Sequence record: OZ035771.1 | Direction: 5' to 3' (one strand) | Source: Phapecoctavirus DIJ07P2 | Length of the DNA: 64,000 bases | In this document: positions 54,904 to 63,960 of the stretch, piece after piece | Position numbering within the stretch: position 1 is the stretch's first letter | How the letters are laid out: the number at the start of each line of letters is the position of its first letter | Notes under the pieces: model-generated | Seen by the model: only the letters and a program-made list of their open reading frames with translations | Database searches by the model: none | What the model was told of the DNA's origin: nothing | Program-made: the position numbers and the translations under genes

Positions 54904-55308
54904 TTATTGAAGTTTAAGTGAACCACGAAGACGTTTCTCTTGCTGATCACGAATATATTGTGGAACCTCGTGAATTGAATCATTACCGTGCCTATTTTCA
55001 ACAACTAAAGAGATAACTTGATAACCAAACTCTTCAGCAAGAGTTAGATAAGGTTTAAGTTCTTTCTCTGTGGTTGAAGTGTTAGAAACAATAATCTTGT
55101 TAAGATTAGATGCCATAGCATCACGAACAATATTCTGACACCATGCGTGTGCTTTACCTACATTTTCTGGCTTCCAATCGTAAACACCACTTTCTGTGTA
55201 ATGATATTGATCTGCCTCACAGATAGGCCAATAACCTTCAGAAATAATTTCTGCTACCGTAGATTTACCAGCACCTGAAACGCCACGTAAAATGATAAGT
55301 TGTTTCAT
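54904..55308 (-). CDS. P-loop kinase (polynucleotide-kinase-like)
   Basis: Walker A GVSGAGKST at N-terminus, 134 aa, adjacent to ligase and phosphoesterase. Confidence 0.55.
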   Translation of the reverse strand: MKQLIILRGVSGAGKSTVAEIISEGYWPICEADQYHYTESGVYDWKPENVGKAHAWCQNIVRDAMASNLNKIIVSNTSTTEKELKPYLTLAEEFGYQVISLVVENRHGNDSIHEVPQYIRDQQEKRLRGSLKLQ

Positions 55309-56241
55309 TTATCCTCCAAAGAAGTTTTCGATTTTTTCACGTCGCTCCTGCTGATTTAAAGCAGCCCATTGAGTCTTCGTAAAATTATTTCGAATCCATT
55401 CTAACAAAGCGTAATATTCTTCGTCAACAATTTGTTTGGCATTTTTTGGATTATCCCAAATCAGATCCCACTTTTTATCTCCACCACGCATAAGAAACTT
55501 CTTAGTAAGATAGTGTGGTGATTTAATTTTTAAAAGTAAGTTGAACGGATAGTTTGTTTCACGAACTACAAACCCTTCGTGTTTACAATGTTTAGACATT
55601 TCAACAACATCTGAAAACTTAACCATTGGATGAACTTCAGGACGCTTAAATTTGGTGACAGAAGCAATTCCATCAAGAGCACCTTCAGGTAACATAAAAC
55701 TTGTCCCATCAGGATTTTGAATTCTGGCACCAATTAAGTATGCACCTGGTTCTTCTTCGACAATATGCGGATCAGAAGGATCACAGATTTCAAACAGGAA
55801 AGTTGCTTTTGCACTCTCTGCCCATTTGATGAAATGTTCTATGTCATCGCACTCTGAAACAATATGATTCTTTGCAATACTTGCAAAATCTGATTCAAGG
55901 CTTCCTGTTGTCGATACAATAAGTTGACCTTTATATACACCTACAGAGGCCATAAAACCATTTACTTTACGAACCACATCTACAAGTTCATCCGCTGGTA
56001 GATCTGTGCCATTCTCAAAACGATTAAAAATCTTAGTGAAAGGCCAAATAACAACATTGTCATCAGCATCAACAACGATTCCGCGACATTCTAGAAGACG
56101 AGAATCAATGTTCCATAGGTTATCCCAGAAAACTTTGTTCTTATACTTAAGAACAGATAGACCAGAATACTCTCCTTCTTTATATGTTTTCTTATGAACT
56201 AAACCTTTTTCAACCAAATCGTCGCAATTAAATTTAGTCAC
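55309..56241 (-). CDS. RNA-ligase-like nucleotidyltransferase
   Basis: motif I KVNG, motif IV EGFVVR, motif V LKIK; second ligase in region, beside kinase and phosphoesterase. Confidence 0.55.
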   Translation of the reverse strand: MTKFNCDDLVEKGLVHKKTYKEGEYSGLSVLKYKNKVFWDNLWNIDSRLLECRGIVVDADDNVVIWPFTKIFNRFENGTDLPADELVDVVRKVNGFMASVGVYKGQLIVSTTGSLESDFASIAKNHIVSECDDIEHFIKWAESAKATFLFEICDPSDPHIVEEEPGAYLIGARIQNPDGTSFMLPEGALDGIASVTKFKRPEVHPMVKFSDVVEMSKHCKHEGFVVRETNYPFNLLLKIKSPHYLTKKFLMRGGDKKWDLIWDNPKNAKQIVDEEYYALLEWIRNNFTKTQWAALNQQERREKIENFFGG

Positions 56242-56242
56242 A

Positions 56243-56794
56243 TTACTCTCCTTTGATTATTTTGTGATGGTCTACAGTTACGATATCTCGTTTACTCATC
56301 ATAGAAATTATCTCATCAAAATGTAAGATTTTTCCGTGTGCATCCCAACCCACATCTAACATTTTACCATAAGCTTCATCAGGGAAAGATCCGTGGGAAT
56401 GCCCGTGTAGCATGATTGATCCACGACCTTGTTTATTCCAGGAGGCTATAGGGTAATGGCTTAAGACGAAGAACAGCTTCTGATATTTCACTTCGTCATA
56501 ATACACCACTTCTCCATACTCTGCAAGCACTTCTCGGTGTTTGCTGTAATCATGGTTCCCAACACAATAAGTGATATCCCCTTGGAGGCGGGAAGCAATC
56601 TTACGGGTATCTTCTTCAGTCCCGAAACAGAAGTCACCCAAATGCCACATCTTGACACCTGGACTCGTAGCGCATTTATTCCATGCTTCGATCAGTGCTT
56701 CTGTCATGTGGTCCATATCTTCCCACGGTCGATATTCAGGAGCAAACTCTCGTATACGTTTGTGCATAAAATGCAAATCACTTGTAATAAACAT
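56243..56794 (-). CDS. calcineurin-like metallophosphoesterase
   Basis: DLHFMH, GDFCFG, GNHD, GHSHG motifs. Confidence 0.75.
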   Translation of the reverse strand: MFITSDLHFMHKRIREFAPEYRPWEDMDHMTEALIEAWNKCATSPGVKMWHLGDFCFGTEEDTRKIASRLQGDITYCVGNHDYSKHREVLAEYGEVVYYDEVKYQKLFFVLSHYPIASWNKQGRGSIMLHGHSHGSFPDEAYGKMLDVGWDAHGKILHFDEIISMMSKRDIVTVDHHKIIKGE

Positions 56795-61220: not shown

Positions 61221-61226
61221 TCAAGT

Positions 61227-61417
61227 GTGGTAACAGGGTCGTTGACTTTTGTTAAGAGGGGCTTGCACTGCGGATAGTGTTAGAGACTACTTCTTCAGAG
61301 GTTAGCTACCAAAGAGGAAAAGGAATAGTCTCGGCTCAAGAACTTTTACGCTGAAAGTTGGGCTTGGTCTTAGAGAATGTAGCGGTTCTCTACAATCGTC
61401 AGCGTCTCTGTTACCAC
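61227..61417 (+). ncRNA. candidate structured leader / ncRNA upstream of first tRNA
   Basis: perfect 10-bp terminal inverted repeat GTGGTAACAG (61227) / CTGTTACCAC (61408) enclosing ~170 nt with internal inverted repeats; no ORF. Confidence 0.3.
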
Positions 61418-61423
61418 ATTTAT

Positions 61424-61498
61424 GGCCCTGTAGCTCAATGGGAGAGCTGTCGGCTCATAACCGATAGGTAGCTGGATCGAAACCAGCCAGGGCCACCA
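61424..61498 (+). tRNA. tRNA-Met (CAT) or Ile2
   Basis: acceptor GGCCCTG/CAGGGCC, anticodon loop CTCATAA, T-arm GCTGG-ATCGAAA-CCAGC, A73, CCA encoded. Confidence 0.75.
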
Positions 61499-61500
61499 AC

Positions 61501-61575
61501 GTCTTTATGGTGTAATGGATAGCACAGGAGTCTTCTAAACTCTTAGTCAAGGTTCGATTCCTTGTAAAGACACCA
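61501..61575 (+). tRNA. tRNA-Arg (TCT)
   Basis: acceptor GTCTTTA/TAAAGAC, anticodon loop CTTCTAA, T-loop TTCGATT. Confidence 0.75.
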
Positions 61576-61771
61576 GAACATTTTAACATGAATTAGCTCA
61601 AGTGATTTGAACCCACTACTGATCATGGTGGCAGAGAATGAGGCAAGTATGTCAGACATTATAAACAAAGGCCACGGTTATATTAGAAGACATAAATGCT
61701 CGAAGAGCACTGTTCGTGGAGAACGGGGGTTGGTGGAGTCACCATTCATGGTAAAATGTTTTAAAAAACTA

Positions 61772-61800
61772 TTGACAACAAGCATTATTTTATGTTAGAT
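61772..61800 (+). promoter_or_regulatory. sigma70-like promoter for downstream tRNAs
   Basis: TTGACA 61772, 17-nt spacer, TTAGAT. Confidence 0.45.
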
Positions 61801-61809
61801 TATAAGTAT

Positions 61810-61900
61810 GGAAGGGCAAATCGACGTGGCGACGAAAACGGTCTTGAAAACCGCCGAGCTTGAAAGAGCCTTGGGAGTTCGACTCTCCCTCCTTCCGCCA
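61810..61900 (+). tRNA. tRNA-Ser (TGA)
   Basis: anticodon arm CGGTCTTGAAAACCG identical to enterobacterial tRNA-Ser(UGA); long variable arm; T-arm GGGAG-TTCGACT-CTCCC. Confidence 0.75.
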
Positions 61901-61905
61901 GATTA

Positions 61906-61991
61906 GGTAGATTGGTGAAATGGTAGCCACGACAGTTTGCTAAACTGTAGTCGGAAACGGCGTGTAGGTTCGAGTCCTACATCTACCGCCA
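61906..61991 (+). tRNA. tRNA-Ser (GCT)
   Basis: acceptor GGTAGAT/ATCTACC, anticodon loop TTGCTAA, long variable arm. Confidence 0.7.
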
Positions 61992-62121
61992 AGTTCTTTT
62001 TAATGTAGCTTACTTTAGCAGAGTAAATCTTCGGCAAGTGGCGGTAACCACTTTACCGATAACTCATAGTTAGTGGTGTGAACACTGGCTATTTTAAAAA
62101 GAATTTAAATATTAGTATTTA

Positions 62122-62209
62122 GGTGAGTTAATTCCGTAGGGGTAGCGGGGCAGACTGTAAATCTGTTATCATTGCGATTCGGGTGGTTCGACTCCATCAC
62201 TCACCACCA
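62122..62209 (+). tRNA. tRNA-Tyr (GTA)
   Basis: acceptor GGTGAGT/ACTCACC, anticodon arm GCAGA-CTGTAAA-TCTGT, long variable arm, A73. Confidence 0.7.
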
Positions 62210-62215
62210 AATTAA

Positions 62216-62301
62216 GATGAGTTGGCTGAATGGTTTAAGCGGCGGACTGTTAATCCGTGTTCGAAAGAACAATATAGGTTCGAATCCTATACTCATCGCC
62301 A
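62216..62301 (+). tRNA. type-II tRNA with Asn anticodon GTT
   Basis: acceptor GATGAGT/ACTCATC, anticodon arm GCGGA-CTGTTAA-TCCGT, 15-nt variable region, G73. Confidence 0.55.
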
Positions 62302-62308
62302 GAATTAT

Positions 62309-62385
62309 GGACTTGTAGAGTTAAGGTAAACCCCCAGTCGCCAATAGGCTTCTGGAATTGCAGGTATCGAATCCTGCCGAGTCCC
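62309..62385 (+). ncRNA. tRNA-like element without canonical anticodon arm
   Basis: acceptor-like GGACTTG/CGAGTCC and T-arm GCAGG-TATCGAAT-CCTGC, but no 5-7-5 anticodon stem-loop and no encoded CCA. Confidence 0.3.
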
Positions 62386-62391
62386 AGCATT

Positions 62392-62466
62392 GCTCCTATA
62401 GTATAATGGCTATTACAACGGTTTTGTAATCCGTGGATCTCTGTTCGATTCAGTGTGGGAGCACCA
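62392..62466 (+). tRNA. tRNA-Thr (TGT)
   Basis: acceptor GCTCCTA/TGGGAGC, anticodon loop TTTGTAA, T-loop TTCGATT, A73. Confidence 0.7.
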
Positions 62467-62741
62467 ACACAACATTAAGAGCACTGTGATTGATCGTCGT
62501 ATCCTGTGCACAAGGTCTGCTCGAAAGACAGTGTTCTTAGTATTGTGTTGATCACAAAAAGAGTCACCCGAAACTTGACCGGAGTAGGGTTGGATGGGGC
62601 AAAATGAGAAGCGGCTCTCCCATCGACAGCAACGAAGAATAATATTTGACTTTGGTTTTGTATTATTTTAAGTTAGCTTACCGAACGTAGGGCTAGTCAC
62701 CCAAAGGGATACTCGTCACTGTCCCACCTATTAAATAACTA

Positions 62742-62771
62742 TTGACATTCGATAGTAAAATGTAGTATAGT
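62742..62771 (+). promoter_or_regulatory. sigma70-like promoter for downstream tRNAs
   Basis: TTGACA 62742, 18-nt spacer, TATAGT. Confidence 0.45.
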
Positions 62772-62788
62772 AAATATATATATACAAA

Positions 62789-62865
62789 GCGTTATTAGTG
62801 TTAGCGGTTCAGCATCCCGTCCTTCCAAGTCGGTGGCATCGGTTCGAATCCGATATAACGCTCCA
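62789..62865 (+). tRNA. tRNA-Gly (TCC)
   Basis: acceptor GCGTTAT/ATAACGC, anticodon loop CTTCCAA, T-arm ATCGG-TTCGAAT-CCGAT, U73. Confidence 0.7.
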
Positions 62866-62963
62866 AATTATTTAATAAAGGGTTGCCAGAAAACTTTCTC
62901 TTTTACTAATGGTTTTCTCTTTCTCTCACACCTCTTCTGGTTGCCCTTCATTAAATGATTTAT

Positions 62964-63039
62964 TGGTTTGTAGTGTAGTCCGGTAGCACACGACACTTTG
63001 ACTGTCGTAGGTTTGGTTCAAATCCAGACAGACCAGCCA
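62964..63039 (+). tRNA. tRNA-Gln (TTG)
   Basis: anticodon arm CGACA-CTTTGAC-TGTCG, T-loop TTCAAAT, G73. Confidence 0.7.
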
Positions 63040-63083
63040 TATAACAAAGGTGAGTCACTACCTTAAGTGCGAAGTTAAAATAT

Positions 63084-63160
63084 ACAGCCTTTAGCTCAAC
63101 CTGGTAGAGTGCATCGTTTGGGGCGATGAAGTTAAAAGTTCGAATCTTTTAAGGCTGACC
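63084..63160 (+). tRNA. tRNA-Pro (TGG)
   Basis: C1:G72 acceptor CAGCCTT/AAGGCTG, anticodon arm CATCG-TTTGGGG-CGATG, T-loop TTCGAAT, A73. Confidence 0.75.
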
Positions 63161-63235
63161 AAATTACAATTCCATGCGTCTGACAAAAGGTTAGTCGGTA
63201 TAAGACGTGGGATTTAATACTTATAAGGAGGACTT

Positions 63236-63577
63236 ATGTATAAATGTAGCCATTGTGGTGAAGAAGATCCGCAAAAGTTCTACGGTCATAAGAAATCTAT
63301 TTGTGGTTATTGTCATAATAAGTATACAATAGACTTAGGACAACAGAAAAAGAAGTATGCTCGTGATAAGTTAGGTGGTAAGTGTGTTTCCTGCGGTTAC
63401 GATAAATATCAGGAAGCTTTAGATATACACCATCTTGATCCGACAATAAAAGACCGGAGTTTCGCATCCATGCGTGGGTGGTCGCTTAAGAGGATTGATA
63501 AAGAGATAGAGAACTGCATCTTACTATGTAAGAACTGTCATTCAGCTTTCCATTCTGGTCATGATATTACTTGGTAG
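63236..63577 (+). CDS. HNH endonuclease within tRNA cluster
   Basis: CSHCG...CGYCH...DIHHLDP...CKNCH; AAGGAGG RBS. Confidence 0.75.
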   Translation: MYKCSHCGEEDPQKFYGHKKSICGYCHNKYTIDLGQQKKKYARDKLGGKCVSCGYDKYQEALDIHHLDPTIKDRSFASMRGWSLKRIDKEIENCILLCKNCHSAFHSGHDITW

Positions 63578-63591
63578 TAATACTAATTAAA

Positions 63592-63665
63592 TGTTTCGTA
63601 GTTCAATGGTAGAACCCACGACTGATAATCGTGAGACACAAGTTCGATTCTTGTCGAAACAACCA
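63592..63665 (+). tRNA. tRNA-Ile (GAT)
   Basis: acceptor TGTTTCG/CGAAACA, anticodon arm CACGA-CTGATAA-TCGTG, T-loop TTCGATT, A73. Confidence 0.7.
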
Positions 63666-63667
63666 GT

Positions 63668-63737
63668 TTCCCGTTAGACTTACAGGATAAGAGATCCACA
63701 ATTTATTGTGACGCTGGTTCGAATCCAGCACGGGATA
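63668..63737 (+). ncRNA. tRNA-like element with degenerate anticodon arm
   Basis: T-arm GCTGG-TTCGAAT-CCAGC and acceptor-like TTCCCGT/ACGGGAT (1-72 mismatch), middle forms CACAA-ttta-TTGTG instead of an anticodon arm. Confidence 0.3.
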
Positions 63738-63742
63738 CATAA

Positions 63743-63821
63743 TAGCGGGATAGAGGAGTCTGGTCGTCCTCGCCAGTTTCATATGCTGGAGATCATTGGT
63801 TCAAATCCAATTCCCGCCTCC
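63743..63821 (+). tRNA. tRNA with CAT anticodon (second Met/Ile2-type)
   Basis: anticodon arm CCAGT-TTCATAT-GCTGG, T-arm ATTGG-TTCAAAT-CCAAT, A1-C72 mismatch, U73. Confidence 0.6.
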
Positions 63822-63936
63822 AAATATCGCTTGCCAGCGGTATCTTTGAAGACCTTGCCTGGTTCCTTCTAAGATGGAGGGGTGCGACTCCTTAACGCAC
63901 AATCATAATAAAACATTTCAAATTAACAGTATTTAT

Positions 63937-63960
63937 TGGCCTCCTTATTGGAGGCTTTTT
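63937..63960 (+). terminator. rho-independent terminator
   Basis: GGCCTCC-ttatt-GGAGGC followed by TTTTT. Confidence 0.7.

What the first reader, a model, noticed from the sequence alone, without database searches (positions are those of the whole stretch)
62309..63737. Two tRNA-like elements with intact T-arm and acceptor pairing but no canonical anticodon arm
At 62309-62385 and 63668-63737 the sequence has a recognisable T-arm (GCAGG-TATCGAAT-CCTGC; GCTGG-TTCGAAT-CCAGC) and complementary 5'/3' acceptor strands, but the middle cannot form a 5-7-5 anticodon stem-loop, and neither encodes CCA. They are packed directly between bona fide tRNAs. They may be decayed tRNA genes, processing or punctuation signals, or tRNA mimics that divert tRNA-targeting nucleases or modification enzymes.
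Basis: seen in the sequence. Interest (0 to 1): 0.45.

Follow-up and report, generated by a model that had tools for sequence, protein, structure and literature searches.

The report
Conserved anticodon-less tRNA-like phage RNAs
The two odd elements are real and are not decaying tRNA genes: they belong to conserved families of tRNA-shaped RNA genes without a usable anticodon, found in the tRNA clusters of several groups of enterobacterial phages (one is the counterpart of phage T5 'RNA3'), and their function is still unknown.

Summary
The window is a phAPEC8-like E. coli myovirus (Phapecoctavirus). 62309-62385 (E1) and 63668-63737 (E2) have paired acceptor strands and the quoted T arms, no 5-7-5 anticodon arm and no encoded CCA, and they sit 2-7 nt from true tRNAs.

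Neither is a tRNA by Rfam (E2 24.3 bits, threshold 29; E1 no hit). They are not decaying genes either. E1 is the homologue of T5 'rna3/RNA3, putative tRNA-like RNA' (GenBank AY543070). It occurs in about 350 T5-like genomes and in Stephanstirmvirinae. E2 has homologues in Vequintavirinae, N4-like Schitoviridae and other phages, where they are left unannotated or called tRNA-OTHER, Leu, Thr or Gln.

In both families the stems are kept by compensatory changes (E2: 96% of cells paired, 13 of 21 pairs changed on both sides; E1: 94% paired). The 'anticodon' arm is always a closed hairpin with a 3-9 nt loop whose sequence differs between clades.

Best reading: these are non-decoding tRNA-shaped small RNAs, co-transcribed with the tRNAs and cut out like them. 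They most plausibly act as tRNA-body mimics; this function is inferred and untested. They are a new member of a known but unexplained kind.

The parts
62309..62385 (+). E1: a tRNA-like RNA gene of the T5 RNA3 family. Acceptor 62309-62315 pairs with 62378-62384. D region without a stem, 62318-62333 (GAGTTAAGGTAAACCC). Closed hairpin 62334-62355 (CCAGTCGCC-AATA-GGCTTCTGG, with a 2x2 internal loop). Linker AATT 62356-62359. T stem 62360-62364 pairs with 62373-62377. 8-nt T loop TATCGAAT 62365-62372. Discriminator C at 62385. No CCA.
   Evidence: Sequence. Fold z-score -3.7. ARAGORN only at the relaxed threshold. No Rfam hit. 87 Stephanstirmvirinae records at >=95% identity. Homologues in Justusliebigvirus and T5-like phages, annotated RNA3 in T5. 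Covariation. Own covariance model scores 66-97 bits on family members.
63668..63737 (+). E2: a tRNA-like RNA gene of a second, related family. Acceptor 63669-63674 pairs with 63730-63735 (U.U at 63668/63736). Bulged D arm: G63677-C63696, A63678-U63695, C63679-G63691, U63680-A63690, loop 63681-63689 containing GG, bulge AGA 63692-63694. Closed hairpin CACAA-TTTA-TTGTG 63697-63710. 2-nt linker 63711-63712. T arm 63713-63729 (GCTGG-TTCGAAT-CCAGC). Discriminator A at 63737. No CCA.
   Evidence: Sequence. Fold z-score -3.0. RF00005 24.3 bits, below the 29-bit threshold. 75 phage records. Homologues in Vequintavirinae, Schitoviridae, Klebsiella 05F01 and SABI/SonariX. Covariation. Own model scores 61-90 bits on family members and at most 52 bits on true tRNAs.
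61772..61801 (+). Sigma-70-type promoter (TTGACA-18-TAGATT, with TG) heading the transcription unit Ser-Ser-Tyr-Asn-E1-Thr.
   Evidence: Consensus scan, 10 of 12 matches. No other promoter or terminator was predicted between it and E1.
62742..62771 (+). Sigma-70-type promoter (TTGACA-18-TATAGT) heading the unit Gly-Gln-Pro-(HNH)-Ile-E2-Met.
   Evidence: Consensus scan, 11 of 12 matches.
63938..63956 (+). Intrinsic terminator that closes the tRNA cluster.
   Evidence: Terminator scan: 7-bp stem with 5 G-C pairs, followed by a T run. Annotated as a terminator in the relative ASO2A.
62216..62301 (+). tRNA-Asn(GTT), 86 nt with a long variable arm. It ends 7 nt before E1. The same Asn-then-RNA3 order is found in T5-like phages.
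   Evidence: ARAGORN and Rfam. Synteny.
62392..62466 (+). tRNA-Thr(TGT). It starts 6 nt after E1, so its RNase P site would set the 3' trailer of E1.
   Evidence: ARAGORN and Rfam.
63592..63665 (+). tRNA-Ile(GAT). It ends 2 nt before E2.
   Evidence: ARAGORN and Rfam, 72 bits.
63744..63822 (+). tRNA-Met(CAT). It starts 6 nt after the discriminator of E2.
   Evidence: ARAGORN and Rfam.

Best explanation
E1 and E2 are genes for small, non-decoding, tRNA-shaped RNAs. They belong to two related, conserved phage families. E1 is the T5 RNA3 family. E2 is an unnamed family that is annotated here and there as 'tRNA-OTHER'.

Shown: they lie inside sigma-70-driven tRNA operons, 2-7 nt from true tRNAs. 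They fold into a tRNA-like body with an acceptor stem, a T arm and, in E2, a GG-containing D loop. Selection keeps these helices in phages as distant as T5-like, phi92/phAPEC8-like, rV5-like and N4-like viruses. The anticodon arm has been replaced by a closed hairpin with a 3-9 nt loop that carries no conserved anticodon.

Inferred: they are transcribed with the tRNAs. RNase P releases the 5' end. The RNase P cut of the next tRNA, followed by exonuclease trimming, shapes the 3' end. Where CCA is not encoded, as in this window, the host CCA-adding enzyme supplies it, as is known for the CCA-less tRNAs of phage T4.

Inferred, least certain: the mature RNA cannot decode. It works by shape, occupying a protein that recognises the tRNA body. 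That protein could be a host tRNA-targeting defence or toxin nuclease, a 3'-end-modifying toxin, or a processing or modification enzyme. Because the RNA has no anticodon loop to cut or read, it would be an uncleavable competitor.
For: Position and transcription context.

Stable folds: z-scores -3.7 and -3.0.

E2 family, 18 distinct sequences from at least 5 phage groups: 95.8% of cells paired; 13 of 21 pairs changed on both sides; 0 of 500 shuffles reach the observed values for percentage paired, pairs and cells changed on both sides, and covariation score (5 of 500 for further pair types); slid controls give 32-48% paired. A11-U28 in Phapecoctavirus replaces G-C elsewhere.

E1 family, 12 sequences from 3 clades: 94.2% paired; 35 cells changed on both sides against 13.8 expected; slid controls 23-44%. 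The hairpin shows compensatory changes (GGTAGC/GCTATC against AGCAGC/GCTGTT).

Near-invariant non-stem motifs in E1: TAGAGTTAAG(G)TAAACC and the 8-nt T loop YAUCRAAY.

E1 is the homologue of T5 'rna3, putative tRNA-like RNA', and about 350 T5-like records carry it.

E1 is kept where the upstream tRNA-Asn is replaced by an ORF (phiWec188 and an IMG/VR phage) and where an ORF follows it (T5).

Most E2 relatives encode (A/G)CCA.

Within Phapecoctavirus, E1 is 98% and E2 95% identical, against 87-97% for the spacers.

The family models separate members (61-97 bits) from true tRNAs (at most 52 bits).

No E2-like element was found by pattern in 185,579 bacterial and archaeal species genomes.

The phage carries a kinase / Rnl1 ligase / phosphoesterase cassette, which suggests it meets tRNA-cleaving defences.
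Against: There is no direct evidence that an RNA product accumulates. Even the T5 annotation calls RNA3 'putative'.

No binding partner is known, and the paper searches found nothing on function.

The loop and hairpin sequences differ between clades, so a decoy for a nuclease that reads a specific anticodon loop is unlikely.

In this window neither element encodes CCA, so any function that needs a CCA end depends on host repair.

One T5-like phage (PMBT26) has a broken E1 acceptor stem, so the element can be lost.

The covariation rests on few independent clades. For E1, the two measures that count pairs and pair types were not better than shuffles.
Confidence: 0.55

Rival explanations
1. They are processing punctuation. 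The tRNA-like fold exists only to give RNase P and the 3' trimming enzymes a handle, so that neighbouring tRNAs or spacer RNAs are released correctly from the polycistronic precursor. The excised piece has no function of its own.
For: Both lie 2-7 nt from true tRNAs in a densely packed operon. E1 follows tRNA-Asn in both T5-like phages and Stephanstirmvirinae. The parts RNase P needs, the acceptor and T stems, are the best conserved helices.
Against: RNase P does not need the hairpin, the bulged D arm or the invariant D-region motif, yet these are conserved and covary. E1 persists when tRNA-Asn is replaced by an ORF, and in T5 an ORF follows it. Many E2 relatives encode a complete (A/G)CCA end, which a mere spacer would not need.
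Confidence: 0.2
2. They are tRNA pseudogenes: former tRNA genes in the course of decay, carried along by linkage.
For: Sub-threshold or no tRNA model score. No CCA in the window. The anticodon arm is damaged. The E2 family spans a range of RF00005 scores from 48.9 bits to undetectable, which could be read as stages of decay. PMBT26 has a broken copy.
Against: The stems are kept by substitutions on both sides across phage families that share little else. The same non-canonical features recur in all clades: a closed hairpin, a 2-3 nt linker, a bulged D arm, and an 8-nt T loop in E1. About 350 T5-like and about 90 Stephanstirmvirinae genomes keep E1.
Confidence: 0.05
3. They are working tRNAs of an unusual kind, with non-7-nt anticodon loops that decode after editing or modification, read quadruplet or doublet codons, or suppress.
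For: ARAGORN reports relatives as tRNA-??? with 2- or 4-base 'anticodons' (nithesis, EspYZU15, KP8) and one IMG/VR relative as tRNA-Val(aac). Most relatives encode CCA. Some pass the Rfam tRNA threshold.
Against: Loop length ranges from 3 to 9 nt within one family, and the loop sequence is not conserved even among close relatives (TTTA, CTTA, CTA within Phapecoctavirus). The window copies have 4-nt loops, which cannot present an anticodon. U33 is absent.
Confidence: 0.05
4. They are tRNA-like RNAs used outside translation in some other way: charged by a synthetase that ignores the anticodon and used as an amino-acid donor, or used as a primer or cofactor by a phage enzyme.
For: The conserved acceptor stem with a purine discriminator and CCA in most relatives points to an important 3' end. 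A weak or mismatched 1:72 pair is frequent.
Against: No G3.U70 (3:70 is A-U in E1 and C-G in E2), no long variable arm, and the discriminator varies between A and G, so no known anticodon-independent identity set fits. This comparison with E. coli identity rules rests on established knowledge and was not tested here. No candidate partner enzyme is shared by T5-like, N4-like and phAPEC8-like phages as far as the annotations seen show.
Confidence: 0.1

Closest known systems
Phage T5 RNA3 (gene rna3, misc_RNA 'putative tRNA-like RNA', GenBank AY543070 33877-33949; also in AY734508 and DT57C)
   Same: E1 is its homologue. Both sit directly 3' of tRNA-Asn in the tRNA cluster. They share the same D-region motif (TAGAGTTAAG-TAAACC), the same 8-nt T loop (YATCGAAT) and the same three-helix layout with a closed hairpin in place of the anticodon arm. 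The stems differ by compensatory changes.
   Different: T5 RNA3 is 69 nt up to position 72, has a U.U at 1:72 and encodes ACCA. E1 is 76 nt, has G1-C72, a longer hairpin with an internal loop and a 4-nt cap, and no CCA. Function is unknown for both.
Unnamed 'tRNA-OTHER' elements of N4-like phages (Gamaleyavirus nithesis, IME11, ST4; Kaypoctavirus KP8), Vequintavirinae (A7_1, UPEC06, NDO71, EspYZU15), Klebsiella phage 05F01 and Enterobacter phages SABI and SonariX
   Same: E2 belongs to this family: 79.9 bits on the family model, while true tRNAs score at most 52. The members share a 7-bp acceptor that usually starts with U1-A72, a bulged D arm (10-29, 11-28, 12-24, 13-23), a 2-3 nt linker before the T arm, a canonical T arm and a closed hairpin.
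   Different: Most relatives encode (A/G)CCA and have 6-9 nt loops. The Phapecoctavirus copies have a 3-4 nt loop, a U.U or U.C at 1:72, and only ACA or ACC after the stem. Annotators have called the relatives tRNA-OTHER, Leu, Thr or Gln, or nothing at all.
Canonical tRNA (Rfam RF00005)
   Same: Acceptor stem, T stem and, in E2, the T loop GGTTCGAATCC and the D-loop GG. Location among tRNA genes.
   Different: No 5-bp/7-nt anticodon arm and no U33. E1 has an 8-nt T loop and no D stem. Scores are below the gathering threshold. No CCA is encoded in the window.
Phage T4 species 1 and species 2 RNAs (rnaC, rnaD) and T5 RNA1 and RNA2 ('tRNA-like stable RNA with unknown functions')
   Same: The same kind of thing: stable or putatively stable small RNAs of unknown function, encoded inside a phage tRNA cluster and partly tRNA-like. 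The T4 case is from general knowledge and was not checked here.
   Different: No sequence similarity between the window cluster and T5 RNA1, RNA2, RNAI, RNAIII, RNAIV or RNA2H. Those RNAs are longer, 103-172 nt.
Other tRNA mimics: mascRNA (RF01684), plant-virus 3' tRNA-like structures, the tRNA-like domain of tmRNA, bacterial pseudo-tRNAs such as Bacillus cereus tRNA-Other
   Same: A tRNA-like body recognised by tRNA enzymes, without normal decoding.
   Different: No homology. ARAGORN finds no tmRNA. The mascRNA model hits only a true tRNA, at 20 bits. There is no mRNA-like part and no G3.U70. These are analogies from general knowledge only.

Membership tests
Canonical tRNA (RF00005) | 7-bp acceptor stem and 5-bp T stem | tested here: met
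   E1 has 7 pairs (one G-U). E2 has 6 pairs plus a U.U. Both T stems have 5 Watson-Crick pairs. The stems are kept by covariation.
Canonical tRNA (RF00005) | Anticodon arm: 5-bp stem and 7-nt loop with U33 and an anticodon conserved among orthologues | tested here: not met
   E1 has a 9-position stem with a 2x2 internal loop and a 4-nt cap. The alternative loop GCCAAUA has C33. E2 has a 5-bp stem and a 4-nt loop. Loops in relatives are 3-9 nt and are not conserved.
Canonical tRNA (RF00005) | 7-nt T loop and a D arm with a 3-4 bp stem | tested here: not met
   E1 has an 8-nt T loop, conserved in all clades, and no D stem. E2 has a canonical T loop, but its D stem is interrupted by a 3-nt bulge and there is no position-26 spacer.
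Canonical tRNA (RF00005) | Score at or above the Rfam gathering threshold (29 bits) | tested here: not met
   E2 scores 24.3 bits. E1 has no hit at E<=10. The 11 RF00005 matches at or above threshold score 39-72 bits; Ser(TGA) matches only tRNA-Sec, at 37.4 bits.
Canonical tRNA (RF00005) | 3' CCA end and aminoacylation | not testable with these tools
   CCA is not encoded in the window but is encoded in most relatives. Addition by the host enzyme and charging both need experiments.
T5 RNA3-type tRNA-like RNA | Sequence and structure homology to T5 rna3 | tested here: met
   This applies to E1. BLAST joins tRNA-Asn plus E1 to T5-like phages at about 75% identity. Motifs are shared. A common covariance model scores T5 rna3 at 79.9 bits and E1 at 97 bits. 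E2 is only distantly related: the E1 model scores N4-like E2 copies at 31-34 bits and the Phapecoctavirus E2 copies of ZCKP1 and ESCO13 at 23 bits; the window's own E2 is not listed at E<=1.
T5 RNA3-type tRNA-like RNA | Location inside the phage tRNA cluster, directly 3' of tRNA-Asn | tested here: met
   In the window, Asn ends at 62301 and E1 starts at 62309. The order is the same in T5, Lindwurm, EH3, PD06 and alia. This is not universal: phiWec188 and IMG/VR locus L005 keep E1 without Asn.
T5 RNA3-type tRNA-like RNA | A discrete, stable RNA product | not testable with these tools
   The T5 record itself says 'putative'. No expression data were available.
E2-type tRNA-like RNA (family delimited here) | Bulged D arm (10-29, 11-28, 12-24, 13-23), closed hairpin directly after it, 2-3 nt linker, canonical T arm | tested here: met
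   95.8% of cells paired over 18 sequences. The D-arm pairs are 100% paired, with A-U in Phapecoctavirus against G-C elsewhere. The window copy scores 79.9 bits on the family model.
tmRNA | tRNA-Ala-like domain (G3.U70) plus an mRNA-like tag reading frame | tested here: not met
   ARAGORN finds no tmRNA in the window. The 3:70 pair is A-U in E1 and C-G in E2. The elements are only 70-77 nt long.

The most novel reading that the evidence does not exclude
E1 and E2 are two branches of one superfamily of anticodon-less tRNA mimics that spreads horizontally between unrelated enterobacterial phages (T5-like, phi92/phAPEC8-like, rV5-like, N4-like). Its members act as RNA anti-defence factors: uncleavable tRNA look-alikes that bind and block host immune effectors or toxins that recognise the tRNA body or its CCA end. 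This would be an RNA-based counter-defence distinct from the known strategy of supplying replacement tRNAs.
Probability: 0.2. Interest if true: 0.8.

Novelty: new member of a known kind. Interest (0 to 1): 0.5.

Why it matters
Small tRNA-like and 'stable' RNAs have been annotated in the T5 tRNA region (GenBank AY543070), and from general knowledge in that of T4, with no assigned function. This window shows that one of them, T5 RNA3, has relatives under clear structural selection in several unrelated groups of coliphages, some of them used for phage therapy. A second, related family is equally widespread and is currently unannotated or mis-annotated as various tRNAs.

Three things follow. First, it gives well-defined, deletable targets and two covariance models for asking what these RNAs do. 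Second, it offers a concrete hypothesis to test: tRNA-body mimicry against tRNA-targeting immunity, in phages that also carry tRNA repair enzymes. Third, it corrects tRNA counts and isotype calls in phage genome annotation.

Tried and rejected
- Rfam at E<=10 gave no family other than a sub-threshold tRNA hit for E2 and nothing for E1.
- ARAGORN with intron mode added nothing.
- The other T5 stable RNAs (RNA1, RNA2, RNAI, RNAIII, RNAIV, RNA2H) show no similarity to the window cluster beyond T-loop words.
- IMG/VR pattern scans gave few new members and several false positives: L014, L016-L018 and L020 for E1, and ordinary tRNAs for E2.
- A pattern scan of 185,579 species genomes gave 64 loci. 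None reaches the family score; the best is 43.8 bits. The pattern is narrow, so this is only weak evidence that the family is phage-specific.
- BLAST of an E2 relative against all complete E. coli genomes found nothing, so descent from a particular host tRNA could not be tested. The resemblance of some E2 acceptor stems to tRNA-Asn or tRNA-Gln is from memory only. The best true-tRNA hits of the E2 model are Asn and Glu, which is not decisive.
- Seven literature searches found no paper on RNA3 or on these elements. The older T5 literature is probably outside the searchable library.
- The whole-cluster MAFFT alignment used for per-feature identity is rough, because tRNAs are swapped between genomes, so the figures are only indicative.
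- The canonical D stem (10-25, 11-24) was rejected for E2 in favour of the bulged version: 75% against 100% paired.
Full report
**What the window is.** The last 2.8 kb of the window match Phapecoctavirus genomes (phAPEC8-like E. coli myoviruses, Stephanstirmvirinae) at 97-98% identity; ESCO5 and vB_EcoM_REC are the closest. The region 61424-63822 is a plus-strand tRNA cluster. Default ARAGORN finds 10 tRNAs. Rfam adds tRNA-Tyr(GTA) at 62122-62206, and a Ser(TGA)-like tRNA at 61810-61896 appears below threshold. Three strong sigma-70-type promoters (61184, 61772, 62742) and one terminator (63938-63956) divide the cluster into operons. E1 lies in the second operon and E2 in the third.

**Checking the observation.** The coordinates, the quoted T arms, the complementary acceptor strands and the lack of CCA are all correct.

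- E1 is 77 nt: a 7-bp acceptor, no D stem, a long hairpin (CCAGTCGCC-AATA-GGCTTCTGG), a 5-bp T stem and an 8-nt T loop.
- E2 is 70 nt: 6 acceptor pairs plus a U.U, a D arm, a CACAA-TTTA-TTGTG hairpin and a canonical T arm.

Rfam gives E2 24.3 bits on the tRNA model (threshold 29) and gives E1 nothing at E<=10. ARAGORN calls both only at an 80% threshold, with defective anticodon arms. Both fold much better than shuffled controls, with z-scores of -3.7 and -3.0. No real ORF covers them. No GenBank relative inspected annotates them.

**E1 is the counterpart of T5 RNA3.** On its own, E1 finds only 87 Stephanstirmvirinae records at 95% identity or more. Searching tRNA-Asn + E1 + tRNA-Thr together showed two further groups:

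- Justusliebigvirus carries a divergent copy (phage alia: acceptor TGCTTG/CAAGCA, T stem GTAGG/CCTAC, hairpin CTAGA-ATTT-TCTAG).
- T5-like phages (Tequintavirus, Epseptimavirus) carry a copy directly after their tRNA-Asn.

That T5-like copy occurs in 356 records. In T5 itself (AY543070, AY734508) and in DT57C it is annotated 'rna3: RNA3, putative tRNA-like RNA'.

Across the three clades the D-region motif TAGAGTTAAG(G)TAAACC, the linker ATT and the 8-nt T loop YATCRAAY are nearly invariant, while the stems differ by compensatory changes. On 12 sequences, 94.2% of cells pair and 35 cells are changed on both sides against 13.8 in shuffles (0 of 500). Sliding the partners gives 23-44% pairing. 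The two measures that count pairs or pair types are not significant, because there are only three clades.

E1 is kept where tRNA-Asn has been replaced by a small ORF (phiWec188 and an IMG/VR phage). In T5 an ORF follows it rather than a tRNA. One Salmonella phage (PMBT26) has a broken acceptor stem.

**E2 belongs to a second, widespread family.** E2 finds 75 records. These include Vequintavirinae (A7_1, UPEC06), where it follows tRNA-Tyr, ends in ACCA, and differs by C-G to U-A in the acceptor and G-C to A-U in the T stem. Iterated searches reached the following:

- Klebsiella Mydovirus NDO71
- Cronobacter Seunavirus EspYZU15
- Klebsiella phage 05F01
- Enterobacter phages SABI and SonariX
- N4-like Schitoviridae (Gamaleyavirus nithesis, IME11, ST4; Kaypoctavirus KP8)
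- IMG/VR contigs

In those genomes the element is unannotated or is called tRNA-OTHER, tRNA-Leu, tRNA-Thr or tRNA-Gln. ARAGORN reports some copies as 'tRNA-???' with 2- or 4-base anticodons. RF00005 scores run from 48.9 bits (EspYZU15) through 40.7, 33.3, 27.9 and 24.3 to undetectable.

On 18 distinct sequences a cloverleaf-like structure is 91% paired. 13 of 21 pairs are changed on both sides; for percentage paired, both both-sides-changed counts and the covariation score 0 of 500 shuffles reach the observed values (5 of 500 for further pair types), and slid controls give 30-45%. Replacing the canonical D stem with G10-C29, R11-Y28, a 3-nt bulge, C12-G24 and U13-A23 raises pairing to 95.8%. 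It also reveals A11-U28 in Phapecoctavirus against G-C elsewhere.

The family therefore has its own conserved architecture: a bulged D arm stacked directly on a hairpin, a 2-3 nt linker, a canonical T arm, and usually U1-A72 with a purine discriminator and CCA. The hairpin loop is 3, 4, 6, 8 or 9 nt. Its sequence is conserved only within clades, and it varies even inside Phapecoctavirus (TTTA, CTTA, CTA).

**Relation between the two families, and to tRNAs.** The E2 model (R1) scores family members at 61-90 bits and true tRNAs at no more than 52 bits. The E1 model (R2) scores members at 66-97 bits. Its next-best hits are N4-like E2 copies (31-34 bits), above every true tRNA (at most 20 bits). 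The alignment shows shared GUAG..UUA.G..AAA.CCCCA.UAG.AAaccA..CU. E1 and E2 are therefore probably two diverged branches of one tRNA-derived superfamily. A narrow pattern scan of 185,579 species genomes found no member.

**How it most likely works.** Three things are shown: the operon position, the stable tRNA-like fold, and selection on that fold together with loss of any conserved anticodon.

Maturation is inferred from established tRNA biology. RNase P would cut at the 5' end. The RNase P cut of the downstream tRNA, 6 nt away, and exonucleases would define the 3' end. The host CCA-adding enzyme would complete it where CCA is not encoded, as is known for CCA-less T4 tRNAs.

The RNA cannot decode. 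The conserved non-stem motifs and the hairpin exceed what RNase P needs. E1 also survives replacement of its neighbours. For these reasons I favour a function of the excised RNA itself: a tRNA-body mimic that occupies a tRNA-recognising protein without offering a loop to read or cut.

One piece of context fits, though it is no proof. The window encodes a P-loop kinase-like protein (54904-55308), a T4 Rnl1-type RNA ligase (55309-56241) and a metallophosphoesterase (56243-56794). Together these form a tRNA healing-and-sealing cassette, which suggests the phage meets tRNA-cleaving defences.

The rivals are pure processing punctuation, pseudogenes (disfavoured by the covariation), unusual decoding tRNAs (disfavoured by the loop variability), and a non-ribosomal use of a charged 3' end.

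**Novelty and verdict.** The kind of feature is known: small tRNA-like or stable RNAs of unknown function in phage tRNA clusters. T5 RNA1-3 are annotated in GenBank, and T4 species 1 and 2 are known from general knowledge. E1 is a new member of the RNA3 family. E2 belongs to an unnamed relative family.

As far as I could find, the following have not been described: the breadth of conservation, the covariation support, the distinctive E2 architecture, and the link between the two families. The searchable literature held nothing on them, although the older T5 papers are not in that library. Function remains untested. Interest is moderate (0.5).

Noticed in passing
window 62216-62301: The tRNA with anticodon GTT (Asn) is 86 nt long and has a long variable arm. 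That class II shape is normally limited to Leu, Ser and Tyr in bacteria. It carries a G discriminator and CCA. The same odd tRNA is conserved in T5-like phages, Stephanstirmvirinae, Proteus phage PM135 and Serratia phage CHI14.
   Followed up: partly
window 61223-61421, 61993-62104, 62467-62548, 62866-62960: The spacers between tRNAs fold into strongly structured RNAs closed by long terminal stems (z-scores -6.0, -3.7 and -5.4 for three of them). The layout is the same as that of the T5 'stable RNAs with unknown functions' (RNAI, RNAIII, RNAIV, RNA2H), but there is no sequence similarity to them.
   Followed up: partly
window 61810-61899 and 62122-62209: Two true tRNAs are missed by default ARAGORN. 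tRNA-Ser(TGA) matches only the Rfam tRNA-Sec model, at 37 bits. tRNA-Tyr(GTA) scores 39 bits on RF00005. Relatives annotate both.
   Followed up: yes
window 63236-63577 (+): A 113-aa HNH endonuclease ORF (Pfam HNH and HNH_2) is inserted between tRNA-Pro and tRNA-Ile. It is absent from most relatives, which cover only about 82% of the query. T5 also has HNH homing endonucleases scattered through its tRNA region.
   Followed up: partly
window 54904-56794 (-): Three adjacent ORFs: a P-loop kinase-like protein (AAA_33), a T4 Rnl1-type RNA ligase (PF09511, 56.6 bits) and a metallophosphoesterase. Together they look like a split tRNA healing-and-sealing (Pnkp/Rnl1-like) system, about 5 kb upstream of the tRNA cluster.
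   Followed up: partly
L035 (Klebsiella phage KP8) 1250-1324 and 2114-2180; L039 1289-1356; L037 1106-1172; L036 866-931: Further tRNA-like elements with closed or odd anticodon arms occur in N4-like phages and in Klebsiella phage 05F01. Examples are CACGAC-ACAG-GTCGTG and forms of 66-68 nt with poor D arms. Non-decoding tRNA look-alikes therefore seem common in phage tRNA clusters.
   Followed up: no
L035 1654-1756 and L036 425-512: Sub-threshold matches to the Rfam permuted-tmRNA model (33 and 29 bits; threshold 47) lie next to the tRNA genes of N4-like phages.
   Followed up: no
L042 (phiWec188) 1104-1232 and L005 (IMG/VR), upstream of E1: In some Phapecoctavirus genomes tRNA-Asn is replaced by a small ORF (42 codons), while E1 is retained unchanged. 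tRNA-Thr and tRNA-Pro are also swapped for different alleles between close relatives. The cluster is therefore a mosaic that evolves by cassette exchange.
   Followed up: partly
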